NCBI GenBank assembly: GCA_000002445.1
Contig: CM000207.1
Span: 1,824,001-1,888,000, forward strand
DNA from: Trypanosoma brucei
Taxonomy: Eukaryota
Length of the DNA: 64,000 nt
Direction of reading: 5' to 3'
Shown: positions 38,283-60,110 of the stretch, one piece after another
Layout of the letters: each line of letters opens with the position of its first letter
Position numbering within the stretch: position 1 is the first letter of the stretch
Program-made: the position numbers and the translations under genes
Notes under the pieces: model-generated
What the model was told of the DNA's origin: nothing
The model's input: the letters and a program-made list of their open reading frames with translations, nothing else
Databases searched by the model: none

Positions 38283-38860
38283 GTTTTTGTAGCTATAAAG
38301 TTAAGCCGGGGTTATGAATTGTACCGCTGTACTTCGTGGAGAGCCACATGATGGCAGAAAAAGAAGTAAACGGGGTATGGCTGCGCGGAAGAATAACTTT
38401 CTTCACCAAATTGTGTCCCTTGCCTTTTTTGCCTCATGGTATATTTTATTTGTTTATTTATTTGTGTTTCACCAAGGAAATGCTTGGTGTTTGCCGCCTC
38501 CAACAGTGTAAGTCATTCTATTTTCCTCTTGTCATTTCCTTTTTTTTGTTTTCACGCACCGGAATCATTGGTTATGTTCACGTAGGCTTGACGCGAAAGC
38601 AAGAAACTTACCGCTGTATCGTTTTCATCACCATTGGATACTCGTAGATTAAGGGAAGGGGGAGAAGGCACCATTGAGAGGTGCAATCCATCGAAATATA
38701 TACATATATTTATTTATTTATTTTTACATCCAGGATCTTTTTTTTTGCTTTTTTCTTTTTGTAACGTGAAATACCACCGCTGCTCAGGCTGGATTTTTGT
38801 AAGGTTTCACGTGGTCTGTAGTTAACATTTTTTTTTATTTTTTGCGCTTCGGTTCGTCCA

Positions 38861-41458: not shown

Positions 41459-41772
41459 TAGTCTGGAAAAGGGGGCAAATACAAGAATTTGAACGTAAAA
41501 TTTAAAGTACCAGTTAGCAAACACCTATATCTTTGACAACCATAGACGACATCATTACTAAGGAGCACGAACAGCACTTCCTTTAATTATTTATTAAAAC
41601 AAAAAAATACGCCCTACACTTGCCTTGAAAAAAATAAGCGAAAATTAATTACTCTGTCCTCTTATTTTTGCAAACGCATAAAGAATTAAAGACAAAAAGA
41701 TTCAAGAGGCACAAGAAGTGGATATCACTGTTTATGATTGTGCTGGTTTTGTTTCGTAAGCGCGTATACAAT

Positions 41773-41832
41773 ATTACTGATGTATAACACGATATTCAGG
41801 TAAAGATTATCAGGAGTAACTGACTGAGATAA
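41773..41832 (+). ncRNA. second candidate box C/D-like snoRNA in the repeat unit (copy 1). It recurs at +662 and +1324. The C box recurs at 43764 in the truncated fourth copy.
   Basis: C-like box TGATGT at 41778..41783 and D box CTGA at 41824..41827 ('taactgactgag'). It is short for a snoRNA, so boundaries are uncertain. Confidence 0.3.
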
Positions 41833-41966
41833 CATCATGCACCACTCTGACCAATACTTCTCCCCTACTGTGGTTATGGAATATGTTTCCCTCCATGATG
41901 CCATGACAAGACTATAAGAGCACAGTTTGAACTGACTTCACAAGACGGACGAGAACGTCGCTGCAA

Positions 41967-42045
41967 TATTCTGATGATTGGAAGGGCATATGGGTGAATA
42001 TATGTGACAGTGAAGCACAATTTACACGGATTCACCCTGACTTAT
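41967..42045 (+). ncRNA. candidate box C/D snoRNA (repeat copy 1)
   Basis: Canonical C box TGATGA at 41972..41977 and D box CTGA at 42037..42040 are 60 nt apart. Internal 'tgaag/gtgacag' are possible C'/D'-like elements. The motif positions are conserved in the repeat. Confidence 0.4.
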
Positions 42046-42628
42046 ATTTTAATGCCGGTGTTATCCGCCAGTGTTGTGCCAGATATATCAGCTGTTTCCT
42101 CTATGATGTTAAAAGAAGTTTTGTAGTAGGGTAAAATCTGACATCCGACCATGAAGGTACGAATTTAATGTGCTTTCATGTGCTTCTGCTATTGTGGTTG
42201 CACAGAGGCGCTATGTCTGAGAATTTCTATCTTTCTCCACTTCTTTTACTTACTTTCCTCCTTCACTGCTTTACTCCCACACTATTTTTTAATCGTTGTT
42301 ACAACTGCTTGGTTCGAGTGCCCTCAGGTATTGTGGTGTTTGTTGCTTATCGCCATCACAGGTTCAAGAGGCACAAGAAGTGGATATCACTGTTTATGAT
42401 TGTGCTGGTTTTGTTTCGTAAGCGCGTATACAATATTACTGATGTATAACACGATATTCAGGTAAAGATTATCAGGAGTAACTGACTGAGATAACATCAT
42501 GCACCACTCTGACCAATACTTCTCCCCTACTGTGGTTATGGAATATGTTTCCCTCCATGATGCCATGACAAGACTATAAAAGCACAGTTTGAACTGACTT
42601 CACAAGACGGACGAGAACGTCGCTGCAA

Positions 42629-42707
42629 TATTCTGATGATTGGAAGGGCATATGGGTGAATATATGTGACAGTGAAGCACAATTTACACGGATTCACCCT
42701 GACTTAT
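42629..42707 (+). ncRNA. candidate box C/D snoRNA (repeat copy 2)
   Basis: Same element as copy 1, shifted by 662 bp (C box 42634..42639, D box 42699..42702). Confidence 0.4.
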
Positions 42708-43290
42708 ATTTTAATGCCGGTGTTATCCGCCAGTGTTGTGCCAGATATATCAGCTGTTTCCTCTATGATGTTAAAAGAAGTTTTGTAGTAGGGTAAAATC
42801 TGACATCCGACCATGAAGGTACGAATTTAATGTGCTTTCATGTGCTTCTGCTATTGTGGTTGCACAGAGGCGCTATGTCTGAGAATTTCTATCTTTCTCC
42901 ACTTCTTTTACTTACTTTCCTCCTTCACTGCTTTACTCCCACACTATTTTTTAATCGTTGTTACAACTGCTTGGTTCGAGTGCCCTCAGGTATTGTGGTG
43001 TTTGTTGCTTATCGCCATCACAGGTTCAAGAGGCACAAGAAGTGGATATCACTGTTTATGATTGTGCTGGTTTTGTTTCGTAAGCGTGTATACAATATTA
43101 CTGATGTATAACACGATATTCAGGTAAAGATTATCAGGAGTAACTGACTGAGATAACATCATGCACCACTCTGACCAATACTTTTCCCCTACTGTGGTTG
43201 TGGAATATGTTTCCCTCCATGATGCCATGACAAGACTATAAAAGCACAGTTTGAACTGACTTCACAAGACGGACGAGAACGTCGCTGCAA

Positions 43291-43369
43291 TATTCTGATG
43301 ATTGGAAGGGCATATGGGTGAATATATGTGACAGTGAAGCACAATTTACACGGATTCACCCTGACTTAT
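43291..43369 (+). ncRNA. candidate box C/D snoRNA (repeat copy 3)
   Basis: Same element, shifted by 1324 bp (C box 43296..43301). Confidence 0.4.
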
Positions 43370-43907
43370 ATTTTAATGCCGGTGTTATCCGCCAGTGTTG
43401 TGCCAGATATATCAGCTGTTTCCTCTATGATGTTAAAAGAAGTTTTGTAGTAGGGTAAAATCTGACATCCGACCATGAAGGTACGAATTTAATGTGCTTT
43501 CATGTGCTTCTGCTATTGTGGTTGCACAGAGGCGCTATGTCTGAGAATTTCTATCTTTCTCCACTTCTTTTACTTACTTTCCTCCTTCACTGCTTTACTC
43601 CCACACTATTTTTTAATCGTTGTTACAACTGCTTGGTTCGAGTGCCCTCAGGTATTGTGGTGTTTGTGGCTTATCGCCATCACAGGTTCAAGAGGCACAA
43701 GAAGTAGATATCACTGTTTATGATTGTGCTGGTTTTGTTTCGTAAGCGCGTATACAATATTACTGATGTATAACACGATATTCAGGTAAAGATTAATAAT
43801 GAGTAAATGTATTAATTTTTCTTTACTATTATTTTAACTAATTAGCTGACGGCTGTGTGTTTTGAAGTCTGTGTGTTGTACTTGGTATGTATTGTTATTG
43901 TTTGTGT

Positions 43908-43950
43908 ATTCTTTTTTTCTTTTTCTTTTTTTCATTTTGTGAGGGAAAGC
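43908..43950 (+). promoter_or_regulatory. polypyrimidine tract upstream of the PLP-enzyme gene (candidate trans-splice signal)
   Basis: ttattgtttgtgtattctttttttctttttctttttttcattttgt immediately precedes the ATG at 43992. The tracker translates it as a spurious N-terminal extension. Confidence 0.45.
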
Positions 43951-43991
43951 TTTGCCTTATTTTTGTTTTGCTTTACTTTATCGAATCGAAA

Positions 43992-45224
43992 ATGTCTAAG
44001 CAGCAGCATTTGGTTTCTGATTTTGAAGATGGCTCTGGTTCATGGTCTAATATCGAACAGGGGTTTGATACTCTTCTTGTTCATGGGGGTGTGAAGCCGG
44101 ATCCAGTGACAGGAGCTGTGCTTACTCCCATTTATCAAAGCACGACGTTTGTTCAAGAGTCAATTGAACTTTATCAATCCAGGGGATTTAGTTATACCCG
44201 GAGTGCAAATCCTACCGTGAAGGCATTAGAGGAAAAGCTGTGCGCGGTGGAGAAGGGTGATTACGCCACGGTATACAGCACAGGTATGGCCGCCACTACA
44301 ACTGTTGTGTCTGCTCTGATGAATGCTGGTGATCATGCTATTGTCACTGACTGCAGTTATGGTGGAACGAATCGTGCGTGCCGTGTGTTTTTTACTCGAT
44401 TTGGTATGGAGTTCACATTTGTCGATATGCGTGATCTGAGCAATGTGGAGAAGGCCATTAAGTCGAACACAAAATTAGTAATCTCTGAAACCCCTGCCAA
44501 TCCTACGTTAACTCTCACTGACATCAGAGCACTGTCAAAGATATGCAAGGCAAAAGGTCTTCTTCATGTTTGTGACAACACTTTTGCAACGGCTTTCATC
44601 ATGCGGCCAATCGACCTTGGTGCTGATGTCAGCCTCATCAGCACAACAAAGTTTGTTGACGGCCATAACATGACGGTTGGTGGTGCACTCGTGACGAAGC
44701 GGAAGGATCTTGATGAGAAACTCCGACTGACGCAGAATATTCTCGGAAATGCCATGTCTCCGTTTGTGGCATTCTTACAACTACAGACAATGAAAACTAT
44801 GTCTCTACGTGTCACTAAACAAAGTGCCAACGCACAGAAGGTGGCGGAATTCCTTGAGACACACCCTATTGTTGATAAGGTGTCCTACCCCGGCCTCAAA
44901 AGCTTTCCGCAGAAGGAACTCGCTGATCGTCAACATTCCAACGGCAATCATGGCGGTATGTTGTGGTTTGAATTGAAGGGTGGCACGGCGGCGGGTCGCC
45001 GTCTGATGGATACCGTCCAACGCCCCTGGTCACTTTGTGAGAATCTTGGAGCAACGGAGAGTATTATCACATGCCCATCTGTCATGACACACGCCAATAT
45101 GACAACTGAGGACCGATTGAAGGTTGGAATTACGGATGGGTTCATTCGTGTTTCCTGCGGTATTGAAGACGCTGAGGATCTCGTTGCCGCTCTTAAGAAA
45201 GCGCTGGATGCCATGTGCCATTAG
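43992..45224 (+). CDS. Cys/Met-metabolism PLP-dependent enzyme (cystathionine gamma-lyase / methionine gamma-lyase family)
   Basis: '...GFSYTRSANPTVKALEEKLCAVEKG...' and '...ISTTKFVDGHNMTVGGALV...' (PLP lysine in the S-x-T-K context). There is full-length collinearity with the trans-sulfuration enzyme family. The tracker start at 43887 is an F/L-rich translation of the polyY tract. Confidence 0.85.
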   Translation: MSKQQHLVSDFEDGSGSWSNIEQGFDTLLVHGGVKPDPVTGAVLTPIYQSTTFVQESIELYQSRGFSYTRSANPTVKALEEKLCAVEKGDYATVYSTGMAATTTVVSALMNAGDHAIVTDCSYGGTNRACRVFFTRFGMEFTFVDMRDLSNVEKAIKSNTKLVISETPANPTLTLTDIRALSKICKAKGLLHVCDNTFATAFIMRPIDLGADVSLISTTKFVDGHNMTVGGALVTKRKDLDEKLRLTQNILGNAMSPFVAFLQLQTMKTMSLRVTKQSANAQKVAEFLETHPIVDKVSYPGLKSFPQKELADRQHSNGNHGGMLWFELKGGTAAGRRLMDTVQRPWSLCENLGATESIITCPSVMTHANMTTEDRLKVGITDGFIRVSCGIEDAEDLVAALKKALDAMCH

Positions 45225-46712
45225 TAAAGAGTGGCTGTGAAGTGGGAAGGGGATTATTAGGAATGAAACTGCACTGTAGTTTCGAAATTCCCTTCTTTAT
45301 TTTTTTTTATTCTCCCTTTTTTCCCCCTCCTCTTTATGTTTTTCTCAATGATTAGCTTCTCCCAGCTTTGAGTGATCATTTGAGTTGAATGTGACTTCAT
45401 ACCGCGTGACGGCAATATTTTCAAGGAAAAAACATTGTTCTTACCTCTATTCTTAGCAGATTCTTCAGGCGGCTATGATTGGAGGCGTGAATAAAAGTTT
45501 GTCAACAACACGATAAAAAAGAATAACAGTAGAGGGTTTCCTGTCGTTCGTGAATGATTATTTATGTAGGAATAAAAAGAAAATCAGTGAGTTGTGAACC
45601 TAATGATTCAAATTGTGAACACAAGCGGGTATTTGAGCAAACGTGTTCAGATAAATCACTTTTTGTTTGTTTGTTTGCCTTTGCTACATCTGCTGTGAAT
45701 CTTTTCGTTTAATTTGGTGTGATGCTCACTTTATTTTAAGGTCCAACTGTACGATCACTCGAAACTACGTTCGGACGCATCAAAAAAATAATAATAATCC
45801 AAGAAGCAAACAAAGCTATGGTAGAGGAAAACAGGAAGAGAATTAAATGAAATTAATATTAGGAGCAGCGAGAAGATGTGGGGGGGAAAATATCGACCGA
45901 CACCACATGGATTAAAAGGAAGGGGTAAAAGGTTTCAAACTAAAAGGAAGGAAAAAAAAAAAGACGGTCATCCACCCAATATTAATGATGATGGTTATCG
46001 TTATCGTTATCGTCTTTTTCCCCCCTCTCCCCTCCCTCAAATGAATAAATTCATTCATTTAATTTTGTTCTGTTACTTTTGGTCGCTAGTGCTGTTTTAC
46101 CATTTGGTTTCATCCCAATTTGATTATTGTTGTGAAGTTTTATCTTTGATTTTTTTTTAATTTTTATCATATTGGGTGCTCGTTCGTTATTTCTCACGTC
46201 AACATCCAATGACGTTTGTTCTTTTATTTTATCAAATAATTTATATTTAAGTTTGTACATGGGTGTGACCGCGTGGGTTGCATTATGTACATCATTTTCT
46301 TCTGTAGCAACAACAACAACAAAAGAGATGCTTGTGTTTTACCATATATTCCATCTTTTTCTTAAATTTTAAAGAAAAAAAAATAACACTTCATAATTCT
46401 CTGTTGTTTTATTTATCCTGTCTTTTTGTTGTTGTTTATCTTACGGGCACATTCATCCTTTCTTGTAAATTTCTTTCCCGTCTTTCTCCTCCTTTTTTTT
46501 TAATAATTTCTATTAACCTCCGTCGGATTACACTAAAGGAAACAGCTGTAGCGAGGGCTGTGGAAGGTCGGAGACAGTCCATTAACTAAGAAACGACTGC
46601 CACTACCGTTAAAACGAACAAGGCTAAATCTGAAAAGTAAAGGCAAAAGAGAAAAAAGAAACAGCAAAAATTGAGTAAATAAATAAAGGGAGCAACACCA
46701 ACAACATCAACA

Positions 46713-47228
46713 ATGCCACCAAAGCGTGCTGGAAAATCAAAAAAGAAGCCAAAGCCACCACCCCCTGTTGTGTTTTACATTTCTACAATCGAGGAATTCA
46801 GTGAAAAGGTGGAGAAATATGAGGGTTGTTGCCTTGTGGCCACTGTCGCGACTCACTGCAGCATGTGCTCCACTACTGTTGTACCATATCTGGAGAATCT
46901 CAATACCTCAAGACCAGCGGCGCTTGCCGCACTGAACATTGTGGTGATTAATGTCGACACCGAGTCTGCGGAATTGTGCAAGTCGCTTCAGTTTGGTGCC
47001 ATTCCAACTTTCTTTTCCTATTCATACGGAAAGCTGATGCACACTTTCTCCGGTAATAATATGGACAAGGCGTTGTTAATAGCGAAAATAGCTGCCCAGC
47101 AGGCTGAACTAGATAAGGCTGAAGCTGCAGCAGCGGCTAAGGAACTAGTAAATGCTGCAGGTGGAACTGCTCCTGACGGCGCTGCTGGCGTTGCAGATGC
47201 GGCCCCCGCACCGGCAGCAGTTGAATGA
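46713..47228 (+). CDS. thioredoxin-fold protein with an atypical C-S-M-C motif, a Lys/Pro-rich N-terminus and an Ala-rich C-terminus
   Basis: 'VVFYISTIEEFSEKVEKYEGCCLVATVATHCSMCSTTVVPYLENL...IVVINVDTESAELCKSLQFGAIPTFFSY..G' follows the thioredoxin topology (xxWCGPC replaced by THCSMC). Confidence 0.6.
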   Translation: MPPKRAGKSKKKPKPPPPVVFYISTIEEFSEKVEKYEGCCLVATVATHCSMCSTTVVPYLENLNTSRPAALAALNIVVINVDTESAELCKSLQFGAIPTFFSYSYGKLMHTFSGNNMDKALLIAKIAAQQAELDKAEAAAAAKELVNAAGGTAPDGAAGVADAAPAPAAVE

Positions 47229-48212
47229 AACGGTGCACCATGCAGTAGAGCTGGGCTCCGTTATGTATATGAATGTGCATGTTAGATGGTTGAAAAGTAT
47301 TTTAAGTTGGACTGTTGAAGGGATGAAAGACACTTTCAGGGGATGTAGAGCGTTTCTTACTGAGCCTGTTTGTTGTTCCTTTTTTGTTGTTGTTGTTCTA
47401 ACGGTCAAACTTAATACTTGATATGCCCAACTTGGTCGATTTTGCGCTTTGATGGGTGGGTGTAAACCCATTTCTTATACTTTGTTTTCTGTTTCTTGTT
47501 CACCTCTCCTTCAATTGTCTATTTCTTATTTATTTTTTTGTTGTGCTTTTCTTTTATATTCTGTCTTGCTGCTATATATTTTGTTTTACTGACCCCACGG
47601 ATTATACGTAAAGGGGGGTGTATATATGTATACGCTCACGTGGATTTGTAAGGTTATAAAACGCTTAAAGAATAGGTGATGAAAAATAATGAGTGCAAAG
47701 GAGGATGAAAACAGTCATATGAAGTAATCATTAATCTCATGGTCACTGCATTTGTAGCATGATGTCGCGCAATTTGGCCTTATTTCACGAGCTCATTTGC
47801 TGATAATTCCACTAGAAGCGTCGACGAACTCTCTTTTCTGTGCTGCTGATTGTATCTGCATGGCTGCGGGAAGAAGGGCTAATATGGAGGATATTACGCG
47901 AAGGACCCTCCGTACAAAAAGGTGCTTCTTTCATTTCCTGTTAAGTTACGGATTCTTTTTAATTCGTTTCCAATACTAATCTTTACTTTTCTTTTCTCTT
48001 CTTTTCTTTTGTAGAAAATAAAAAAAAAGGACTCCCTTGTCTATTGGCCACGGTTTGGTGGTCAGAGGGGGAGTGGGTGAGTGCGTGCGTGGGAAACAGA
48101 CACATACGGACAGGAGGGGTAACTTAGATAGGAGTGAGCAGAGAGAGAGAGAGAAGTCAAAGAAAAGAGGGGAAAGAAAAATAAAGGGAGGTTAAAGTTG
48201 AAAAAAAAGAAA

Positions 48213-50258
48213 ATGGCAACCACGAACCCCCAGCAGCGTCGGACCCACGCAGCGAAGGTTGTTCTCTCGCAGTTGTATGCTACATGGGTAACGAGCGAAA
48301 GTGGTATGACAGAAATAGAGAAAGCCATTGAGGAAATAATGAGCCTGCAGCAAAAGGGTAGGAAAACTAACGGTAGCCCACCAAATGAAAGTAGTAATGC
48401 AACTAACCGGCATTCAGCGGAGCCCCAGCAACAGCGCAACCCCGCTGACGCTCAAAATAATTACCACTCGGATCCCAACACAACTCCCGTCCAAGCCACA
48501 CCACGCCGTAGTTCTTCTCCGCAACCAACATCGCCGGGGAACGCGCGTCGTCGGCAAGGAGATGATGCACCGCGTTCGCCGAGTCCCGTACACAAAACAC
48601 GTTTATATGGCGTGGATGAACTCGACTTCTCCCATCGTGTGGGTTCCCCCGGTGGGACGACTACCGCTTCACCGGGCGGAATTCATCACGTGAAACCTGT
48701 CGTCGACCCGATGGCACCAGTGCCGCACTTGAGTAGTAGCACTGGTGTCACTAATAACAACATTAGTGGCGTCAGCAACAACAGTAACGTCAACGTAGCG
48801 TCGATTCAACCAACTACGCACTTCCTTAGCCCCGGTTCGCTGGATGTTTCTGTCACCTCTGTAGTTGTGCCAAATGAATCATTCGCTTCTATAGAAACGA
48901 GCGTTGCGGGGAGCTCGATGCCATCACAGCGTGTAGTGCATCTCTCAGGAAACTTCGCTTCCCTCCCTCCCGAGAATGTAGAGCGTGCTACACTTAACGA
49001 TATCCCGGTGTTTTATAGTGGTAAGGATCGAAAAGGTGGAAGAAAGTCGCTTGTAGAAGCGGAAGAGCATGCATTACGAAATTTCTTTGCTCTTAAGGGC
49101 TCGGCGGTGAACCGAAAGGTAGCGAAGGGCGCGGTGGCACCGATTGATGCAAGCAAAACCGTGAGAAAGGGCCAGTTTGGTAAACTTTGCCAGGATGTTT
49201 TTGGTGTGCCGACGTGGTTGAAGGATGCATTATTTCGCCGCATTGCGGTGACGTCTGGTGTCTCTGAATCGACCGCTCTCACATATGAACAGATATCGAC
49301 CTTCTACTACAATGTATTTGGGCCTCTTTCCATTAACAGACGCCTATTCGAGCTGCTGCGTAACGACTCGCGATCTGAGCACTTGACGCTGCAGAATCTC
49401 AAGGATGCCACACGTTACTTAGTCGACTCCCATCCAGGTCTTGAATTTCTTAAGCAACCGGAGTTTCAGGAGTATTACTGCCGAACAGTTGCGATTCGCA
49501 TAGTGTACTCTTTAGAGCGGCAGCAATGTGGTTTTATTAGTTGGTATGACTTCGATCGCAGTGATCTCCCCGAGGTTATGCAGGAGGTAGACGAAAAGGA
49601 CGTGAACGTAGTCCTTCAATACTTTTCTTATGAACACTTCTATGTACTGTACTGCAAGTTCTGGGAGCTGGATACTGATCGGGATCAACTGGTTGGTTTT
49701 GACGACATGTGTAAATATGGCCAGGGGGCTATTTGCCCATCTGTAATAAAGCGGGTTGTAGAGGGAGCTGGTCGTCCCCTCAAATCAGGAAAACCGGGGA
49801 AACTTGATTTCGAGGACTTTGTGTATTTTTGCCTCTCCGAGGAGGATAAGAACAGCCGCTCGGCGGTATATTACTGGTTTAAAGTGCTTGACGTTGATGG
49901 TGACGGCATTTTGAGTGGCTATGAGCTCTACGAATTTTTCCAGGAGAATCAACAGCGATTTTTAGAGTATTTTGAGTGCCCCGAGTCGGACCTTTCATAC
50001 CCTGATATGATGTGTCAGATGATGGACATGCTGGGCTTTTCGCATGTGTCGGAGGAGAAGTTTGGACTGAAACTGAGTGACCTGCACTCCTGTGCAACGC
50101 CAGCCAATTTCTTCAACATGGTGTTTAACGCGCACAAATTTATGCTCTTCGAACACCGCGATCCGTTCTTAGAGCATCAGCAAAAAGTGCGTCCCGAGAA
50201 AACAGAGTGGGATCGATTTGCTCGTGCTGAGTACGATCGTATGGCTAGTGAGGCGTAG
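48213..50258 (+). CDS. protein phosphatase 2A regulatory subunit B'' (PR72/PR130-like, EF-hand) with a long Ser/Pro-rich N-terminal region. The alternative in-frame ATG at 48198 is 5 codons upstream.
   Basis: '[28 protein letters not shown]' and EF-hand '[27 protein letters not shown]' parallel human PPP2R3 '[28 protein letters not shown]' and '[26 protein letters not shown]' (recalled from memory). Confidence 0.8.
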   Translation: [681 protein letters not shown]

Positions 50259-50351
50259 TAGTAGATTATAGATACGCATGCATGTGCGAATGTGGTGGGT
50301 TCCCAAAGGTGTTTACAGTGGAATCCATATTTGCATTTGCGTACATTCAAC

Positions 50352-50375
50352 GGTGGGGTGGGGTGGGGTGGGTGG
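50352..50375 (+). other. canonical G-quadruplex-forming motif (G4 T G4 T G4 T G3) in the 3' flank of the PP2A B'' gene
   Basis: The sequence reads ggtggggtggggtggggtgggtgg. It has four G-runs of 3 or more with 1-nt loops, about 95 nt downstream of the stop at 50258. Confidence 0.6.
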
Positions 50376-53300
50376 ATGTATTAATGAATCATTCGCCACA
50401 GAGTGTCTTGAGAAAATTGCTTTTTCCTCTCCCTTTGTTTTGATTTTCATTATCTCGTTAAATGTTCTGTGTTGTCGTTAGTGTTGTATTGCCAGGTTGC
50501 GACGTGTTTGATGGGTCTTAATCCCATGTGGGATGATGCTGGGAAAAAGGAAGGGGAGGAAATTATGATTAATACAATGATGAGGTGTATTGAGAGGGCA
50601 GTTGTCGGTGGATGCAATCATTGAGGTGGGGTTAGAGTTGAATGAAGTGAAGTGAAGTGAAAAAATGAAATGAAATGAAAGAAAAGTAAAGAATTCGATA
50701 CGGAATGGGGGGGAAGTAAACTGGATTGCGATACCTTCTTCTTGTTCTATAAATCCTTCTTTATTGCGCTCATCCTCCAACAACATTGTAAAGTTACGAT
50801 TAAACCTTTACTTTATTCGGTTGAACCCCGCCCCCCCCCTTCGTGGCCGACACTGTTTTATTCCTACAATTAGGGTTCGTTAATGGTTAAGCGAATGAAG
50901 AAGGAGTGAAGAAGGGAAAATAATGAGTTGAAGGTTGGGAAAATTAGCTGCTTTACGGTTTCCACCGCATTCGATACCTTCTTTCTTTCCTTGTTTATTT
51001 CCTTTTCCTCGCCTCCACCGCTACATTTTCTCTGCCTTTCGTTGTTGTTGTTGTTTCATTAGTTTGTTTGTGACACTCATTCATCCCAAACGGTATGATT
51101 ACATAAATTCGCGCGTTGACATGCGTGAGTTAGGCGTTTTTAGGTGATTTGTTTTTCGCATTTGCGGTGCTTCAGCTCAATCGACTCTCTTTCCCATTGT
51201 TCAGACTTTTGTTTTTATGCGGTGTTGTGATTTGCTCGCCTGTTTTTTGTTTGGTTTCCTGATTGCTGTCAACTCCACACGTTTTTTGTATGTTCTGCCG
51301 CATTCAGAGAGCAATATATATATATATATATATTTCGTGAGTATGCGGAATGAAAAAAAAAAAAGAATATACCATGCATTCACTGTCGCTCATTTTCCAG
51401 TTAAAAAAAACCGGTGGAAGGAATTAAACAGAGTAGGGAAACAAAGAAACAAACAAGCAAACACAACAGGAAAATAAAAGGAAAGAAAAAAAGACGGAAT
51501 ACACAATGAAAGTTATTGGAAGAGAGGGGCATGTGGGAGCGCAGTTGCTGTCTCTTTTTTTGTTTGTTTCTGCTATCATCATCATCACCACCATTTCATG
51601 TTTCTTCACGGACAATCGTATATATTTATAAATATTTATATATTTATACGTATATTTCTATATTTTGTTTATTTATTTGTGTTTTTTAGTTACACTCTTT
51701 TTGTGCGTGTGCGTGTATGCCCCATGTGAATTTGTTTCTATTCACTCTTTTCCTTACATGTGTTAACAAACAAGCATTGGGGCAAAATGATGCATTGTTG
51801 AATGGAAGGTAAGAAGATTCAAAGGACAACGGAACAGAAAGGAAAATTAAAAAAAAATGAACGAAAACAAACTGAATGCATCGAAAGATGGGAAACAAAC
51901 AAAAACAGGAACTACAACAGCAACAGGAACAAAAAAAAAGAAAGAAAAAGAAAACATCAAAATGGAAAGAAGTTTGCTGCTTTTCATTATTCCTTTCCTC
52001 ATTTCCCTCCCTCTTCCTCCTTTTTTTTTTTCGTTCCTCCTGTTGCTGTTGATCTCGCTGCGATTTATTCATTTTTCCCCTTTCCCAATATTTCCCCTCT
52101 GCGGTGTTTACTCCTTTCTTCTTTTTCTTTTTTTTTCTTCATATAAATATATTTTATTATATTTTATAGATAAATAATGTTAACATTAACAGTTAATACT
52201 CTTCCCATCCTTTATTGGCTGTTTTTTTTTAACCCTTCCATTATTTCCATATGTTTGTGTTTGTTGCTTTACTACGGTTAAAATTTTTGTTCATGTTATT
52301 TTATTACAAGTCTTAAACTCAACTTATTCTATCTCCTTTTCTTTTTTTCTTCTTTCTTTTTTCTCTTTCGCTATAATATAATTAACTTTTACTACTGCAA
52401 TATGTTGGTTGAAATTAGTTTCAGTCCCACTCGCACACGCTCACAAATCAATCATAAACTGAAGTGAAAGGGAGTAATAAAACGGAAGGTATAAAATAGA
52501 TCAATTCACAAGGAAAAGAAACTAAAATTATTTAAAATAACTTCCACATATTCATACATACATACACACACACACACAAAAAAGAAAAATAATTGAGAAC
52601 AAAAAAAATTCATTAAAGGGAGAAACGTCTTTACATCGGGTTAAAACCCCTCCCCAAGAAAATAAATAAAATCAAAGCAAAAAAAAACACTGTGTGAGTC
52701 GGTAACTCGACATTAAACGGGTTTGTTTATTTTTTCTTTGATTTTTCTTTTTTACTTTTTTTTGTTCCCCTTATTCCACCTTCAAAAAAAAAAAAACTTT
52801 CTCTCTTTTTTTTTTCCTCTTTACCACACAGGCTTCTGCGAGCAAGTAGAAACACCATTTGCTCTTTAAAAAAAAAAAAAAAATACAAAAAAAAAGAGAG
52901 AAAAGAGAAACAAAATAAAAAGCAACACATCAAAGGAAGCAAAAAAAAAAAGTACGGCGAGTCAAAACGTCAAATACAAAAAACAAAAGGTGCAACTAAA
53001 CTTTAAAAAGATTTTTTTTTAAAAAAAAAAGAAGGAAAAAAAACAAGAAGTCAGTCGATTCCACTCATTTCAAGGAGACAAAGAACGAAAAGACAACAAG
53101 AAAGAAAAAAGTAGTGCAGAAGGATTGAACCGCGGGGCCCGCCTACAAGGAGGACGAAGCAGGGAAAGTAAAACAAAAGGGATTTTTTTTAAAAAAAAGA
53201 AAAAAAAGAAAAAAAAGTTTATTTATATATTTGTTCATTTATACCAGTGGCCGAATTATACAAGTCAAAGCAAAGCAAAGCAAAGCAACAAGTAACAATA

Positions 53301-53528
53301 ACAATAGCAAAACACGCCCGCACAAAGTGCAAAGGAGGACGTTCAATACATTATTTTTGGTCACTGGGACTGGAAAATTGGATAAAGGAGGCTGAATCAG
53401 AGGACTTGCAGCGCGACTCCACCAAAAAATAAAAATTAAAAAAAATTAAAAAAAAATCAACACGCATACATTATAAAGCAAATCAAACAGGAAAAAAGTT
53501 TTTTAAAAAAAAAACAAAGCAAAGCGAA

Positions 53529-53530
<2 letters not shown>

Positions 53531-53569
<39 letters not shown>

Positions 53570-53577
53570 CACAAACT
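53531..53577. repeat. (TA)n microsatellite, about 23 units
   Basis: An uninterrupted 'atatat...' run inside the long A-rich intergenic region. Confidence 0.95.
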
Positions 53578-54965
53578 TTACCTTGCGCAGATACACATAC
53601 GGATCAGGGAGTAGGCGAGGCGGAGGCCGGGAAATATTTCATCATTTAGTGGCAGCGGCTGGCAACAAAAAAGGGAACGGAAAGTTGCGAAGGAAACTGC
53701 GACTGGTAGGCGAAGTCGCCAGCGGCCAGCAAATAACGGAAAGTATCGAAGCAGCAGCGGCAGCGGAGGTGGCGGCGGTGGCGGTCGTGGAAAAAACGAA
53801 AAAAAAAAGAGCACTGAAAATCCTTCACAAGGAGGGGAATAAACAAATAAATAAATAAAAGCAAAAGCATTTATTTATTTATTACCAAATCAACACCAAC
53901 AACAAAGAAGAACAAAGCGGTAACGGGAATTTGCAGGGGTTTACGGGACTTTTTCTTCTTTTTCTTCTTTTTTTTTCTTGATCTGTTCATTACCGTGCTA
54001 CCACCATTAATAATATTATTATCATCACTATTTATTATCGTTGTCGTTACTAACTCTGACTCTTGTTGGTTTTTTTTAAAATAATACAAAACAACAATAA
54101 CAACAACAACAGGAAGAAGAAACGACAACAAATCAAACAGGAAAAAGTAAGAAAAAAAGAAGAGAAAGCACACAAAAGGAAAGAAAAGTGAAGAGAGAAT
54201 AAGAAGGAGAAAGCGGTGGTGAAGAAAAGGGGGAACGTGTTGTTTACATCTCCCCAGACATATAAATTATTTAATATATATACATATATATATTATATTT
54301 ATATTTATATATCTGTATTTGTCTTTACGCATTTGCGTATTCCACTCATTTCCCTGCCGGACAGAAGGGTTACGAGGAAAAAAAAAGAGAAAAAGAGAAG
54401 ATAGAATATCAATACAAATTCATCAGTACCCAGTAGTTTTTTAACAAACTAAGAAAAGAAAAGAAAAGAAAAAAAAGGGACAACCTTATTCACGGACAAC
54501 AAACGGGGAAAAGAAGTAGCGATAAAAAAAAGAAAAGAGGTGCGAGAGTGAAAGAGGAAGAGAAGGAGAGTGGTTACATCCGATCAAAGGATTCAAATAG
54601 TATAAAAAAAATAAAATAGCAATAATAGTAAATAAATATATTAAAAAGAAGAGCACAATTAGAAAATACTGCTGAGGTAGAAGAAGGGGAAGGAAAAGGA
54701 GAAAACAACAGGGAACTTAACGGGGAGGAGAAAATATTACTTATATATTGCCTCTTTTGTTGTTTATTTCCGTGACGCCATCCTGTCAGCGTGACGTGTA
54801 AAGGGAGTTACTAGTTTTATTTTGTAGTTTGTTTTTTAATAGAGCAGGGCGGGGGGAAGTGATTAGAGGGAAAACAAACAAACAAATAAATAAAAAGAGA
54901 AGAAATCCTTTATAACTCAGCAGGTCCGTGGCAACAGCAGATAACTGCTGCTGCTGCTACTACTG

Positions 54966-55030
54966 TTATTGTTGTTTTCTTTTTTTCTTGAACTCTTCTT
55001 TTTAATTTTCCCATAGTTGTTGTTCTCGAC
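54966..55030 (+). promoter_or_regulatory. polypyrimidine-rich region upstream of the RRM/PAM2 gene (candidate trans-splice signal)
   Basis: The sequence is ttattgttgttttctttttttcttgaactcttctttttaattttcccatagttgttgttctcg. Confidence 0.35.
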
Positions 55031-55372
55031 TCGTGTGGTATTCCTATTGCTCTTGTAGTTGTTGTTTCTGCGATTGCACTCGATCTGTGGCGATAAAGGG
55101 AAAGGAGAAAACGTAGAAAAAAAAACTATTCGGTAACGTGAGGTGTTAAATTGGATATTATTATATAAACGGTAGAATTTTTTTATTTTTGGAGCTTAGA
55201 CCCGTGCTTTCACGTGTCGCAGTGACCTGTTTCCAGAGTTTAACGAATAGGAAGTGAATTCAGTAGACGAAAGAAAAAAAAAAGAGGATAAATTTCAAAA
55301 GCATATTAACGTTGTAGAGGAGTGCGTTTGAGTGGGAAGTTGGTTGATTAGTGGTGTTTAACTTTTCAAATT

Positions 55373-57055
55373 ATGGAGGGCACTGGCGGTAAAGTTAAGG
55401 GACTAAGCTCATTGGAACTCAAGGCTTTGAGTGTGCCCTTTGCGTTGCGTTTCCTTCTGGGTGTGGAGTGTGATGTTGTATTATGCGTTACAGAGGTGGG
55501 AAATCGGCGACCCTTCTCCATTAGATTTCCGAGCCTTTCCAATGCATTCAAAGAGTTGTTGCAGTTGTGCGCCTTACGGTATGACCTCTCTTGTGAGCAT
55601 TATGACGATCACAGCCTCTTTACGGGAATTCTAAAATTCCCAATACTTCGGTACATTGACTACATACCAGGTGCTTTACATATGGAAGAAGTCCTCGGGT
55701 GCTTAGGCGTGGAATCGATAAGGTCACCGAAGCGTTTGGGAGAATCCCTCCATGAATTTGTGGCGTCCTTCATCGACTACAAGGACTACCAGCCAGACGC
55801 GGCACTTGATCCGTTGAATAACGGACTGTATTTAACGTTAGACTACGGCCTTTCCACAGCCACGCACAGTCACCTTGTGGAAATACAGTTTCATAGGGGA
55901 TGGGATGTTGATGCAGCTCTGCGAGAGTTTGAGGAATTTAGCAGGTTGACAGCAAATGATATCCGCTTCATCGATGAAAACAATAGAGGAAGAGGTGGTG
56001 TGCTCGTAATGCCATCAACACAAGACGCATCAGATTTGTTTGAGCGTTATGAGGACGAGGACTCCGATGACGAAGGTGAATTGCTACCTTTTGTGCTTCG
56101 TCCTGTAGCCCCAATGGTGCCTGTTCCATCGGTGGAGGATTCAACACTGAGAAAACACCGTGAGCAGTACTGGAAGGAGATTGAAACCTTCTGGAAGCGT
56201 TTCCCGATATGGAGTAATACTGTGGTTGTTTCCAACCTCTACGATGGCGCTACACTGGAGGACGCGCTTCGGTTGTTTGATGGACTTGCCATTGCAAAAG
56301 CCACAATGGTGGAATGCGACACCCCCGCGCGCCGGCGGAAGTTGTATGTAACGTTTGAGACATCTGCCGTGGCGCGCACGGCTTTGTCGTCGGACAGCAT
56401 GAGCACGAAAGGAAAAACTCTCCGAGTTCAAGTTTCTCCCCCGTTCCTTAATGAGGAGAGACGCGGCCGTGTGATTGAAACGATTTCTTCGCCCACCTCA
56501 TCTCCATCATTGCGTAGTAAATGCTATCCCACCGGACTCACTGGCTCTCCTAACTGCACTACAGCAGAACCTGAGGGGGTACACAATGAACGGAAAGAGA
56601 CAGAAGGTCGTCGGCGGGATGCACACGCCGTATCGGGCAAAAGTAGAGACTCTGCGCCCGCGTTAGTGAATACTGAGTCTAAACATAACGCGTATACAAC
56701 GCCCAAGTTGAAACCCAAGACACCGGATGTAATGTGTCAAAGCCCTTCACCGGTATCGTCAACCATGAATGCAAACGCCAGAGAATTTGTCCCTTCGTCT
56801 GCCTTTCATGCATCCACTCCGACTACGAGCGCATATGTCTCACCTGTGCCTTTAGTGTGTGTGAGTGAAGTCCTTTTGTCTCCTCCTGCGTATTCTCTTC
56901 ATGGAAGTTCTGTACGGCAGGACGTTGGGTTGGGTGGGGGGCCTCCGCCACCTCCACCGCCGTACACTGCGCCTCCTCCATATGGCGTTGCTGCGGTGCA
57001 AACTGTTGGTATGTTTCCATCTCACGTGCTTCCCCCACCGCATCAGTCAGCATAA
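55373..57055 (+). CDS. RNA-binding protein with an RRM, a PAM2 (PABP-interacting) motif and a C-terminal PPxY proline-rich tail (560 aa)
   Basis: RRM-like 'TVVVSNLYDGATLEDALRLFDGLAIAKATMVECDTPARRRKLYVTFETSAVARTAL...KTLRVQVS'. 'STMNANAREFVPSSAF' fits the PAM2 consensus [LM]-N-x-x-A-x-E-F-x-P. The C-terminus carries 'GGGPPPPPPPYTAPPPYG' (two PPxY WW-binding motifs). Confidence 0.7.
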   Translation: MEGTGGKVKGLSSLELKALSVPFALRFLLGVECDVVLCVTEVGNRRPFSIRFPSLSNAFKELLQLCALRYDLSCEHYDDHSLFTGILKFPILRYIDYIPGALHMEEVLGCLGVESIRSPKRLGESLHEFVASFIDYKDYQPDAALDPLNNGLYLTLDYGLSTATHSHLVEIQFHRGWDVDAALREFEEFSRLTANDIRFIDENNRGRGGVLVMPSTQDASDLFERYEDEDSDDEGELLPFVLRPVAPMVPVPSVEDSTLRKHREQYWKEIETFWKRFPIWSNTVVVSNLYDGATLEDALRLFDGLAIAKATMVECDTPARRRKLYVTFETSAVARTALSSDSMSTKGKTLRVQVSPPFLNEERRGRVIETISSPTSSPSLRSKCYPTGLTGSPNCTTAEPEGVHNERKETEGRRRDAHAVSGKSRDSAPALVNTESKHNAYTTPKLKPKTPDVMCQSPSPVSSTMNANAREFVPSSAFHASTPTTSAYVSPVPLVCVSEVLLSPPAYSLHGSSVRQDVGLGGGPPPPPPPYTAPPPYGVAAVQTVGMFPSHVLPPPHQSA

Positions 57056-57463
57056 TTTTATTTCTCTTTTCTCCTTTCTTTGTTTGTTTTTTTCACTGTT
57101 TTTCGCAATCGCTTCATTTTTTCGTTGGGTTTGTCTCAAAACAGGGGGAGAAGGGAAAGAAAAAGGAGAAAAAGGACTCTTGTTGTGTGTGTATATATAT
57201 TGTGTAATTGTTTTTATTTGATATTTTTGTTACTTCCATGCCCTTCTTTTTTGTTTTTTCCCCTCCGTTTTGACTTCCTTTTGTGTTTTTCCACTACCTC
57301 GTTTCATAGCACTTTCTCAAAAAGAAAAAGTGAAAGAAAAACTATAAATATTTGTATTTATATTACCATCACTGTGTTGGTGTATGTGCTTGTTACTGTG
57401 TCAACTTTCCCTCTATTTCTTTCCTTCTCCTCTATCTCCCCCTAAGCTCCCTTTATATATATA

Positions 57464-58625: not shown

Positions 58626-60110
58626 ATGTATGCTGATGAAGAGGAGAGTCGTTTCACTGGTAATATTCATACAATGCCTTCGATGACTGCAAACGGTAAG
58701 AATAAGGAATCCGCAACGGAAACGACAGATCTGCTCAGGAATGGCGGCTCCAAAGACGATGAAAATGTAGGTTATACATCAGTCTTCACGCAAACAATTG
58801 TCGTTATGCGACATGGGGAGAGGCGTGACGGGTCGGTGGATGCGGAACCGGAAGCGGATCCTCCTCTTACAGAACAGGGTTTAGCAAATGTGTCAAACGC
58901 AGCAACAGAGCTTCGTAACATTCTTGGAAGCAGAACAACACAGAATTTGCAGATTTTGACCTCACCGTTTTTAAGGACTATGCAGACAGCTGAGAGGCTG
59001 CAAAAGTGTGGAATAGGTGTAAGACGGCAGCGAATTGTAGACAACAACCTTTGTGAGGTGTACGGGCCATTGAGAATTAAAAGTAAAGAACCACCCCGCT
59101 TACCCGATGATGCTGTGGTGTCCGGACGTGGGTCGCTGCCTCTGTGGGGGGAGTCCCTCGAGTCAGCAACAAAACGGTTTGCTGATGCGTTACAAATGAA
59201 CTCACGCACATATTCGGAAGCGAATCTACTATTCGTAACACACGGCGATGCCTTAGGTGCTATCGTTTCTGCACTCTATCCAATGCGGATGGTTTATGAG
59301 GCGGAATACCTCTCTTTCATTGTTCTGCGGAAAAATAAGATAGAAAATAGCTTAGCAAGTGGATGCCGTGAGTTTGAACTTGTGGCTTCCAAAGGTGTGC
59401 AATGGATGGTTACAGGTCCGGAGGATTGCGACCCACAAGAGTCGGGTCATGCAGCTTCTGAGGATTCCGCTTTAGGCAAGAAGAGCGACCCTTTCGGGCA
59501 ACCGAGAGGTGATTCACCTCTTCACATTTCCCGCCGCCCCTTTGGAGCTGAAGACGGTGCGTCACCCATTAATTTACACAACCTCTCCAATGAGGAGGGC
59601 CGCGGGTGCTTACTGGATTTTTGGTTACTTTTTGTATTTCGCGTGTTGGCAGTGGCGTCGCAGGCACCTCTGCTTTTTTTCCTTGAGACAAACCTTAAGG
59701 ATGCTGGTACGTATATCACTGTTGTTTTGCTACTCGAGTTGATATTCTTTTATGCCTCCACCACTGACGAGAGATATTTTGGTTTTTATCAGGCGCTCGT
59801 AGCTGTTGAGAATTTTCCTGCAGTTTGTCGGCGAAGTTACAGGTCACTTTCCGGTGGTCACGGTGCGAGCACCCCTCGACCCAATGTACTGTTGGTACTT
59901 TGCGCCGCGAGCTTAAAGTGTTTTGCCATTTTTGCTATTGCTAGCGGTGCTGCCGCGTTTTTAAGCCTTTTCCCCGGTATCCACTTCACAATGTTTGATT
60001 CGTATAAGATGATATTCAACTCATTCTGGAGTGCGCTGCTGGTATTGTTTTTGCTCTTATTTAACTTTGTCCGTGTATACTGCTACGTGTCGGTAGCTTT
60101 GGCGGGTTAA
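58626..60110 (+). CDS. histidine phosphatase superfamily (phosphoglycerate-mutase-like) protein with a long hydrophobic C-terminal extension
   Basis: 'IVVMRHGERRD' is the catalytic R-H-G signature. A downstream 'LFVTHGDALGAIVSAL' provides the second conserved His. The C-terminal about 170 aa is rich in F/L/V/A with several predicted TM-like segments. Confidence 0.65.
   Translation: MYADEEESRFTGNIHTMPSMTANGKNKESATETTDLLRNGGSKDDENVGYTSVFTQTIVVMRHGERRDGSVDAEPEADPPLTEQGLANVSNAATELRNILGSRTTQNLQILTSPFLRTMQTAERLQKCGIGVRRQRIVDNNLCEVYGPLRIKSKEPPRLPDDAVVSGRGSLPLWGESLESATKRFADALQMNSRTYSEANLLFVTHGDALGAIVSALYPMRMVYEAEYLSFIVLRKNKIENSLASGCREFELVASKGVQWMVTGPEDCDPQESGHAASEDSALGKKSDPFGQPRGDSPLHISRRPFGAEDGASPINLHNLSNEEGRGCLLDFWLLFVFRVLAVASQAPLLFFLETNLKDAGTYITVVLLLELIFFYASTTDERYFGFYQALVAVENFPAVCRRSYRSLSGGHGASTPRPNVLLVLCAASLKCFAIFAIASGAAAFLSLFPGIHFTMFDSYKMIFNSFWSALLVLFLLLFNFVRVYCYVSVALAG

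What the first reader, a model, noticed from the sequence alone, without database searches (positions are those of the whole stretch)
55373..57055. RRM protein combining a PAM2 motif and two PPxY motifs
The ORF encodes a central RRM-like domain. It also has a sequence matching the PABP MLLE-binding PAM2 consensus (MNANAREFVPS; L/M-N-x-x-A-x-E-F-x-P) and a C-terminal poly-proline tail with two PPxY motifs (PPPPYTAPPPYG) that could recruit WW-domain proteins. This combination suggests an mRNA-fate regulator that docks on poly(A)-binding protein. In kinetoplastids nearly all gene regulation is post-transcriptional, so such adaptor proteins are functionally important.
Basis: partly seen in the sequence, partly recalled or inferred. 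Interest (0 to 1): 0.6.

Follow-up and report, generated by a model that had tools for sequence, protein, structure and literature searches.

The report
RBP35: mRNA-binding adaptor with PABP-docking motif
The ORF is the already named but barely studied Trypanosoma brucei gene RBP35 (Tb927.9.12360), an mRNA-binding protein whose disordered tail carries a deeply conserved poly(A)-binding-protein docking peptide (PAM2) and three PPxY motifs, and whose unannotated N-terminus turns out to be a degenerate R3H domain.

Summary
Window 55373-57055 (+) encodes a 560-aa protein. Published cloning primers match both ORF ends exactly, so it is T. brucei RBP35 (Tb927.9.12360).

The PAM2 peptide MNANAREFVP (aa 465-474) lies in a predicted disordered tail. 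It is present in 43 of 46 full-length family members, from kinetoplastids to diplonemids, with Ala, Phe and Pro invariant. It shares 7 of 10 residues with the Leishmania eIF4E4 PAM2 crystallised on PABP1.

T. brucei has three PPxY motifs, not two (P = 3e-4 by shuffling), and they are conserved.

New here: the best-conserved part (aa 10-280) contains a degenerate R3H domain (aa ~31-86), probably followed by a second RRM-like fold.

Not new: a 2024 NAR paper already lists RBP35 as a PAM2 protein. Binding to PABP or to WW proteins has not been tested. The "repressor" label could not be traced to primary data.

Most likely it is an mRNA-bound adaptor that docks on PABP. It is a solid but only moderately novel finding.

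The parts
55373..57055 (+). RBP35 (Tb927.9.12360) coding sequence, 560 aa plus TAA stop
   Evidence: ORF listing. 100% identical to XP_827481.1 / Q38DG9. The Erben 2014 Table S6 primers for Tb927.9.12360 match exactly at 55369-55386 (+) and 57038-57055 (-). Gene order from Tb927.9.12320 and .12330 agrees.
55400..56212 (+). Conserved folded N-terminal module (aa 10-280), previously unannotated
   Evidence: It is the most conserved part of the family. AlphaFold pLDDT is about 85-90. Only 33 relatives were found among 1.84 billion representatives.
55463..55630 (+). Degenerate R3H-like domain (aa ~31-86); the R-x3-H signature is K60...Q64 in T. brucei
55865..56107 (+). Probable second, RRM-like (ferredoxin-like) fold (aa ~165-245), ending in the near-invariant acidic stretch YEDEDSDDEG (aa 226-235, nt 56048-56077)
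56216..56440 (+). Diverged RRM (aa 282-356): RNP2-like VVVSNL, RNP1-like K-LYVTF preceded by a conserved basic PxRRR(K/R) stretch
   Evidence: Only one of the three canonical RNP aromatic positions is kept (Y326), judged from the alignment to the PABPN1 RRM.
56492..57052 (+). Predicted intrinsically disordered C-terminal tail (aa 374-560)
   Evidence: pLDDT is below 50 over almost all of 374-560. Conservation is low except at the motif islands.
56765..56794 (+). PAM2 core MNANAREFVP (aa 465-474); the Pfam match covers aa 462-476 (nt 56756-56800)
56882..56893 (+).
   Evidence: The position is conserved as PP(A/S/P/C)Y in the orthologue alignment.
56954..56983 (+). PPxY motifs 2 and 3 (PPPYTAPPPY, aa 528-537)
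   Evidence: Conserved as PPYxLPPPY across kinetoplastids.

Best explanation
The ORF is RBP35, a cytoplasmic protein that binds mRNA and is built in two halves.

The folded N-terminal two thirds (degenerate R3H domain, a probable pseudo-RRM, then a diverged RRM) contacts mRNA and may also mediate self-association.

The disordered C-terminal third carries short linear motifs. The PAM2 peptide (M465-P474) inserts F472 and M465 into the hydrophobic pockets of the MLLE domain of a trypanosome poly(A)-binding protein, as the near-identical eIF4E4 PAM2 does on PABP1. The three PPxY motifs recruit WW-domain proteins; the WW-containing CCCH regulators ZFP2 and ZFP3 are the obvious candidates.

RBP35 would therefore couple its bound mRNAs to the PABP at the poly(A) tail. 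Because it uses the same MLLE site as the cap-binding factors eIF4E4 and eIF4E3, the likeliest net effect is to modulate translation or stability, probably dampening it, during starvation and differentiation.

Shown here: gene identity, domain architecture, motif presence and deep conservation, predicted disorder, and published RNA binding.
Inferred: PABP binding, WW binding, and the direction of regulation.
For: Identity: primer matches.

RNA binding: RBP35 is in UV-crosslinked mRNA-bound proteomes. It was positive on 5 of 6 RNA-probed protein-array slides.

Folds: RRM. R3H-like.

PAM2:
- Present in 43 of 46 full-length family members, with Ala7, Phe10 and Pro12 invariant.
- Retained in the diplonemid Sulcionema specki, where it is duplicated and passes the Pfam gathering score at 28 bits against 20.
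- It is an island of conservation inside a predicted disordered tail.
- It shares 7 of 10 residues with the crystallised Leishmania eIF4E4 PAM2. These include the Met that fits the pocket formed by Phe525 of the PABP1 KITGMFLE motif, and the Glu-Phe pair shown by mutagenesis to matter.
- The only PDB hit of the peptide is the PAIP2 PAM2 bound to the PABP C-terminal domain.
- An independent HMMER survey lists RBP35 as a PAM2 protein conserved in all trypanosomatids.

PPxY: enriched over chance and positionally conserved. WW-domain mRNA regulators exist in trypanosomes and bind proline-rich partners through the WW domain. Their WW regions resemble those of Nedd4-family ligases.

Biology: the protein is cytoplasmic, and TcRBP35 rises under the starvation used to trigger metacyclogenesis. 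[quoted passage not shown]
Against: No direct evidence that RBP35 binds PABP1 or PABP2. It was not found in the held part of the T. brucei PABP proteome table, but that file was cut when stored, so this says little. It is not mentioned in the Leishmania PABP interactome paper.

The T. brucei PAM2 scores below the Pfam gathering threshold, at 16.8 bits against 20.

The RRM keeps only one of the three canonical RNP aromatic residues. The R3H lacks its signature Arg and His in T. brucei. RNA contact through the canonical surfaces is therefore uncertain.

The tethering columns in the Erben 2014 summary read 0 for both up- and down-regulation. The 'repressor' label could not be traced to primary data, and Lueong 2016 is not held.

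No PPxY-WW pair involving RBP35 has been reported.
Confidence: 0.6

Rival explanations
1. RBP35 is a positive factor. By holding PABP on its target mRNAs through the PAM2 motif it stabilises them or promotes their translation, as LARP4, ataxin-2/PBP1 and PAIP1 do, and does not compete with eIF4E3/4.
For: The PAM2 evidence is the same as for the best explanation. PAM2 proteins of both signs exist (background). The Erben screen gave no enrichment in the repressor (PGKB) selection.
Against: The same screen gave no enrichment in the activator (BLA) selection either. A later paper labels the protein a post-transcriptional repressor. Knockdown gives a growth advantage during differentiation, which fits a brake better than a general activator.
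Confidence: 0.2
2. The proline- and tyrosine-rich tail is not a set of WW ligands. It is a low-complexity region that drives partitioning into granules or condensates, or that binds other proline readers such as profilin, SH3 or GYF domains. The PPxY matches would then be a by-product of composition.
For: The tail is predicted disordered and contains a run of seven prolines. The number of PPxY copies varies from 2 to 8 among relatives. The one full-length diplonemid sequence (Sulcionema specki) has PAM2 but no PPxY. The literature search found no trypanosome WW-PPxY pair beyond ZFP1-ZFP2/3.
Against: Three of the four tyrosines in the T. brucei tail sit in PPxY, P = 3e-4 against composition-preserving shuffles. 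The motifs align positionally across kinetoplastids as PPxY ... PPYxLPPPY. At least two copies are present in 43 of 46 full-length members.
Confidence: 0.3
3. The PAM2-like peptide is conserved for a reason other than PABP binding, for example as a docking site for another partner or as a degron.
For: The T. brucei match is below the Pfam threshold. No binding data exist.
Against: The substitutions seen across the family follow the PAM2 consensus. Position 1 is only Met or Leu. Position 7 is Glu, replaced only by Pro or Ala. Ala, Phe and Pro are invariant. The peptide closely matches two PAM2 peptides solved on MLLE domains. In the diplonemid the motif is duplicated, as PAM2 motifs often are.
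Confidence: 0.1

Closest known systems
Trypanosomatid eIF4E4 and eIF4E3 N-terminal PAM2 motifs (Leishmania eIF4E4-PABP1 crystal structure; T. cruzi eIF4E3-PABP1/2 pull-downs)
   Same: The PAM2 core is nearly the same: MNPNATEFMP against MNANAREFVP, 7 of 10 identical. Both start with Met where most PAM2 motifs have Leu, and both sit in a disordered region of a cytoplasmic mRNA-metabolism protein of the same lineage.
   Different: RBP35 is an RNA-binding protein, not a cap-binding factor. It has one PAM2 where eIF4E3/4 have two or three. Its binding to PABP has not been tested.
Human NFX1 / yeast FAP1 (PAM2 plus R3H); also PARN (R3H plus RRM)
   Different: There is no zinc-finger array and no nuclease domain. 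The domain order differs. There is no detectable sequence homology outside the R3H fold, and the R-x3-H signature is lost in T. brucei.
[quoted passage not shown]
   Same: A non-canonical RRM lacking some RNP aromatic residues, an R3H domain and long disordered regions. Pin4 is reported to bind mRNA 3' UTRs, to respond to nutrient depletion, and to have an R3H domain suggested to dimerise. TcRBP35 likewise rises on starvation.
   Different: The order is reversed: RRM then R3H in Pin4, R3H then RRM in RBP35. No PAM2 is mentioned in the Pin4 preprint (0 occurrences). Homology was not tested here.
PAIP2, Tob and GW182-type PAM2 repressors; LARP4 and ataxin-2/PBP1-type PAM2 stabilisers
   Same: A PAM2 short linear motif in a disordered region targets the PABP MLLE domain. 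The RBP35 peptide aligns to PAIP2 (VKSNLNPNAKEFVPGVK) as its only PDB hit.
   Different: The other domains differ. The sign of the effect for RBP35 is unknown.
Trypanosome ZFP1-ZFP2/ZFP3 system (proline-rich ligand and WW domain)
   Same: It shows that WW domains on kinetoplastid mRNA regulators read proline-rich motifs on other RNA-binding proteins and act in differentiation.
   Different: RBP35 has never been tested as a ligand. ZFP1 is a small CCCH protein unrelated to RBP35.

Membership tests
RRM (Pfam PF00076 RRM_1) | Match to the family profile | tested here: met
   The T. brucei sequence alone gives no hit at E <= 10. However, 17 of 20 orthologues hit RRM_1, best E = 2.2e-8. The family profile also finds solved RRMs by sequence: RBMY 2.6e-5, Mip6 2e-4, eIF4H 6.6e-3.
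RRM (Pfam PF00076 RRM_1) | beta-alpha-beta-beta-alpha-beta fold | tested here: met
RRM (Pfam PF00076 RRM_1) | RNP1 and RNP2 aromatic residues on beta3 and beta1 | tested here: inconclusive
   From the alignment to the PABPN1 RRM: RNP2 is VVVSNL, with Val at the aromatic position. RNP1 is K-LYVTF, keeping Y326 and F329 but losing the position-3 aromatic. A conserved basic RRR(K/R) stretch precedes beta3.
PAM2 (Pfam PF07145; ligand of the PABP MLLE domain) | Match to the family profile at the curated threshold | tested here: inconclusive
   T. brucei scores 16.8 bits against a gathering score of 20, E = 0.0054. Six of 20 orthologues match at E <= 0.01. The Sulcionema orthologue scores 28 bits and passes.
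PAM2 (Pfam PF07145; ligand of the PABP MLLE domain) | Consensus residues: hydrophobic position 3 (Leu or Met), Asn4, Ala7, Glu/Pro9, Phe10, Pro12 | tested here: met
   M465, N466, A469, E471, F472 and P474 are all present. Across 43 family instances Ala, Phe and Pro are invariant, and the first position is only Met or Leu.
PAM2 (Pfam PF07145; ligand of the PABP MLLE domain) | Located in an accessible disordered region | tested here: met
   pLDDT is below 50 over aa 430-522.
PAM2 (Pfam PF07145; ligand of the PABP MLLE domain) | Physical binding to a PABP MLLE domain | not testable with these tools
   No published test was found.
Class I WW-domain ligand (PPxY) | [LP]PxY motif in a disordered region, conserved in orthologues | tested here: met
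   PPAY 504, PPPY 528 and PPPY 534. P = 3e-4 against shuffles. At least two copies in 43 of 46 full-length relatives.
Class I WW-domain ligand (PPxY) | Binding to a WW domain | not testable with these tools
   The candidate readers ZFP2 and ZFP3 are known from the literature only.
R3H domain (Pfam PF01424) | Match to the family profile | tested here: inconclusive
   T. brucei gives no hit. The orthologues P0050 (Sulcionema specki), P0051 (Diplonema japonicum) and P0053 (source organism unknown) pass at 42.4, 39.7 and 27.0 bits against a gathering score of 26.8. They are linked to the kinetoplastid N-terminal profile at E = 5e-23 to 4e-12 over profile positions ~10-265 (P0053: 11-227).
R3H domain (Pfam PF01424) | R3H fold | tested here: met
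R3H domain (Pfam PF01424) | Signature Arg-x3-His | tested here: not met
   In alignment A4 the Arg position is K60 in T. brucei, Q in T. cruzi, and R in Leishmania and the diplonemids. The His position is Q64 in T. brucei, and Ser, Glu, Ala, Arg, Phe, His or Asp in the other aligned sequences. I therefore call it R3H-like.
MKT1-binding proteins (H(N/D/E)PY motif) | HNPY-type motif and MKT1 association | tested here: not met
   No H[NDE]PY occurs in the sequence; the nearest is HNAY at aa 438-441. The Erben 2014 summary lists MKT1 association as 'none'.

The most novel reading that the evidence does not exclude
RBP35 is a kinetoplastid-specific antagonist of the closed loop. Bound to selected mRNAs through its R3H/RRM module, its eIF4E4-like PAM2 occupies the MLLE site of PABP1 (or PABP2) and displaces the PAM2 motifs of eIF4E4 or eIF4E3. 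At the same time its PPxY motifs bring in the WW-domain differentiation regulators ZFP2 and ZFP3. This would link starvation and differentiation signals directly to cap-to-tail communication on those mRNAs.
Probability: 0.15. Interest if true: 0.65.

Novelty: new member of a known kind. Interest (0 to 1): 0.38.

Why it matters
Trypanosomes control almost all gene expression after transcription, and their cap-binding factors eIF4E3 and eIF4E4 contact PABP directly through PAM2 motifs. An mRNA-bound protein carrying a nearly identical PAM2 is a natural candidate to tune that contact on specific transcripts.

RBP35 is conserved from diplonemids to Leishmania. It changes with starvation in T. cruzi, and its knockdown alters fitness during T. 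brucei differentiation. Even so, it has had no dedicated study.

The architecture established here (R3H-like domain, pseudo-RRM, RRM, PAM2, three PPxY motifs) gives precise point mutants to test: F472A, E471A, and Tyr-to-Ala at 507, 531 and 537. It also corrects the view that the protein is a single-RRM protein.

The gain is incremental, not conceptual. PAM2 adaptors are a well-known class, and the PAM2 motif in RBP35 has already been listed.

Tried and rejected
1. Pfam on the T. brucei protein alone found no RRM and no R3H. Scanning orthologues and using family profiles was needed.
2. The sequence profile of the N-terminal 280 aa against the PDB found nothing meaningful (xylose isomerase, E = 1.5). 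Only fold comparison and the diplonemid orthologues revealed the R3H.
5. RBP35 was not found in the Zoltner 2018 PABP proteome supplement, but the file was cut when stored, so this is uninformative.
6. I first took the 'd' code and the values 2.43 and 1.84 in Erben Table S7 for tethering data. They are the RNAi phenotype and the RNA-array ratios. The tethering columns read 0 and 0.
7. Lueong 2016, the likely source of the 'repressor' label, is not held.
8. The literature search for WW/PPxY pairs in trypanosomes gave nothing specific.
9. An MKT1-binding HNPY motif was considered and rejected: it is absent, and MKT1 association is listed as 'none'.
10. The overlapping + strand ORFs 56865-57221 and 57080-57445 are low-complexity read-throughs with no support.
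11. UniProt accession Q38DG9 occurs in no held paper.

Full report
**What is there.** Window 55373-57055 (+) is a single 560-aa ORF. Its product is 100% identical to T. brucei TREU927 XP_827481.1 / UniProt Q38DG9. The Gateway primers published for Tb927.9.12360 (RBP35) in Erben et al. 2014, Table S6, match the window exactly. The forward primer lies at 55369-55386 and spans the ATG. The reverse primer lies at 57038-57055 (- strand) and ends on the stop codon. Gene order agrees. The cystathionine gamma-lyase at 43887-45224 is Tb927.9.12320, and the thioredoxin-like ORF at 46713-47228 is Tb927.9.12330. So the finding concerns a named but hardly studied gene: only four papers in the library mention RBP35.

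**Checking the observation.** All three elements are present.

(i) PAM2. SSTMNANAREFVPSS (aa 462-476) gives a Pfam PAM2 hit at E = 0.0054 and 16.8 bits, just under the gathering score of 20. The strict pattern is expected about 4e-5 times per protein of this composition, and it occurs once in all six frames of the window. The only PDB sequence that a 40-aa query around it finds is the PAIP2 PAM2 peptide solved with the PABP C-terminal domain, 1JGN_B.

(ii) PPxY. T. brucei has three such motifs, not two: PPAY 504, PPPY 528 and PPPY 534. Three of the four Tyr in the 84-aa tail lie in PPxY, against 0.19 expected from shuffles (P = 3e-4).

**Conservation.** The word-index search found 33 homologues across Trypanosoma, Leishmaniinae, Phytomonas, Angomonas, Bodo and uncultured relatives. 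A full HMMER profile search of 1.84 billion representatives with the N-terminal 280 aa also found only 33 proteins. These include the diplonemids Sulcionema specki and Diplonema japonicum.

Among 46 family sequences of at least 500 aa, 43 carry a PAM2-type peptide and 43 carry at least two PPxY motifs. Two of the sequences without PAM2 have aberrant C-termini that look like gene-model errors. The third (P0028) has MKVTAKEFVP, which the regular expression missed.

Over 43 PAM2 instances the logo is [ML]-N-x-x-A-[KR]-E-F-[VI]-P. Ala, Phe and Pro are invariant. The rare replacements of Glu (Pro, Ala) are those seen in other PAM2 motifs. Within the otherwise unconserved, predicted-disordered tail (pLDDT below 50 from aa 374), the PAM2 and PPxY sites are islands of conservation. 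The Sulcionema orthologue has two PAM2 copies that pass the Pfam threshold (28 bits) but no PPxY tail. PAM2 therefore looks older than the PPxY tail.

Independent sequence evidence agrees. The two diplonemid orthologues and the unidentified relative P0053 pass the Pfam R3H gathering score (42.4, 39.7 and 27.0 bits against 26.8) at the region that aligns with T. brucei aa ~31-86. They are tied to the kinetoplastid profile at E = 5e-23 to 4e-12. The signature Arg-x3-His is not kept: it is K60...Q64 in T. brucei. I therefore call the domain R3H-like.

**What is already known.** A 2024 NAR paper on T. cruzi eIF4E3 and eIF4E4 ran a proteome-wide HMMER search for PAM2. It lists RBP35 together with G1-IP1, G5-IP, CE1 and 4E-IP2, and says the motif is conserved in all trypanosomatids. 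It notes that the G1-IP1 and G5-IP PAM2 motifs are putative and their binding to PABP undemonstrated, and it reports no binding test for RBP35.

Other published data on RBP35:
- It is in UV-crosslinked mRNA-bound proteomes, and its level falls in a PRMT1 knockout.
- It bound labelled RNA on 5 of 6 protein-array slides.
- It is cytoplasmic according to TrypTag.
- TcRBP35 rises under the starvation used to induce metacyclogenesis.
- MKT1 association is listed as 'none'.

The 'posttranscriptional repressor' label cites Erben 2014. But Erben's own summary sheet shows 0 for both the PGKB (down-regulator) and BLA (up-regulator) enrichments. The likely source, Lueong 2016, is not held. I treat the sign of regulation as unsettled.

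**Mechanism.** The strongest functional clue is the similarity to the only trypanosomatid PAM2 solved on its partner. Leishmania eIF4E4 MNPNATEFMP binds the PABP1 MLLE (there 'MFLE') domain. Its Phe sits in a large pocket. Its first Met packs against the lineage-specific Phe525. Glu146 and Phe147 are important for affinity, whereas N143 and M148 are dispensable. RBP35 has MNANAREFVP, with 7 of 10 residues identical. All the important residues are kept, including the Met where other lineages usually have Leu.

[quoted passage not shown] Because eIF4E4 and eIF4E3 use the same site, RBP35 could compete with them on its target mRNAs. This is inference.

The PPxY motifs are class I WW ligands by sequence. 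Trypanosomes have WW-domain mRNA regulators, ZFP2 and ZFP3, that bind the proline-rich ZFP1 in a WW-dependent manner and control differentiation. A motif upstream of their WW domains is closest to that of Nedd4-family HECT ligases. They are plausible readers, but nothing has been tested.

**Comparison with known systems.** RBP35 works like the PAM2 adaptors (PAIP2, Tob, GW182, LARP4, ataxin-2, NFX1). By motif it is closest to trypanosomatid eIF4E4. NFX1/FAP1 also combines PAM2 with an R3H domain, and PARN combines R3H with an RRM (both from my own knowledge). Yeast Pin4 and S. pombe Cip2 combine a non-canonical RRM, an R3H domain and disordered regions, bind 3' UTRs and respond to glucose depletion, though the domain order is reversed and no PAM2 is mentioned in the Pin4 preprint. 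I did not test homology to any of these beyond the fold.

**Verdict.** The gene, its RNA-binding annotation and its PAM2 are already in the literature. The conserved PPxY cluster, the degenerate R3H domain and probable pseudo-RRM, and the extension of the architecture to diplonemids appear to be new, at least within the library I could search. Interest is moderate to low (0.38): a well-defined, testable adaptor of a known kind, not a new kind of system.

Noticed in passing
window 50259-55372: About 5.1 kb upstream of RBP35 has no ORF of 130 aa or more and is AT-rich (GC 0.33-0.39). It contains (AT)n arrays at 53531-53567 and 54274-54312. A polypyrimidine tract at 54975-54989 lies about 380 nt before the ATG. 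For a trypanosome intergenic region this is unusually long, which suggests a very long 3' UTR of the upstream EF-hand gene and/or a long RBP35 5' UTR.
   Followed up: partly
window 56048-56077 (aa 226-235): YEDEDSDDEG is the most conserved stretch of the whole protein (mean majority fraction 0.92). Its Ser231 is invariant and lies in a CK2-like S-D-D-E context. It sits at the end of a helix in the putative middle RRM-like fold. Its function is unknown.
   Followed up: no
literature on Tb927.9.12360: RBP35 is labelled 'posttranscriptional repressor' in PMC6299225 Table 2, citing Erben 2014. Erben's own Table S7 summary lists PGKB and BLA tethering enrichments of 0 and 0 for this gene. The annotation cannot be traced to that primary source.
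   Followed up: partly
window 57026-57052 (aa 552-560) versus the Leishmaniinae orthologues in alignment A1: Leishmaniinae end in a fourth motif, LPPPY. In T. brucei the equivalent is LPPPHQSA (Tyr replaced by His), and in T. cruzi it is PPPPPSS. The last PPxY site has therefore been lost in Trypanosoma.
   Followed up: no
P0010 (Leptomonas pyrrhocoris), P0024 (Phytomonas sp. Hart1), P0025 (Bodo saltans): These public gene models diverge from the family after the RRM and lack both PAM2 and PPxY, whereas close relatives such as the Bodo-like P0023 have both. They are probably frameshifted or mis-modelled C-termini in the deposited annotations.
   Followed up: partly
RBP35 mRNA (supplementary Table S7 of PMC9585242): Tb927.9.12360 mRNA appears about 7-fold enriched (1018.7 against 146.2) in one of the eIF4E3/eIF4E4 CLIP-seq comparison tables. 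I did not determine which factor or condition.
   Followed up: partly
window 35430-50258 and 58626-60110: Neighbouring genes on the same strand: a PEX19 homologue (35430-36287), an RFC small subunit (37197-38282), cystathionine gamma-lyase Tb927.9.12320 (43887-45224), a thioredoxin-like CxxC protein Tb927.9.12330 (46713-47228), an EF-hand_13 protein (48198-50258), and a histidine-phosphatase-family protein downstream (58626-60110). All ORFs of 200 aa or more in the window are on the + strand, as expected for one polycistronic unit.
   Followed up: partly
P0050 (Sulcionema specki), aa 578-613: The diplonemid orthologue carries two tandem PAM2 copies (GMNVSAKEFVP and GLNADAKEFVP) at its extreme C-terminus. 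It also has a long Ser/Pro-rich insertion between the N-terminal module and the RRM, and no PPxY motifs.
   Followed up: partly
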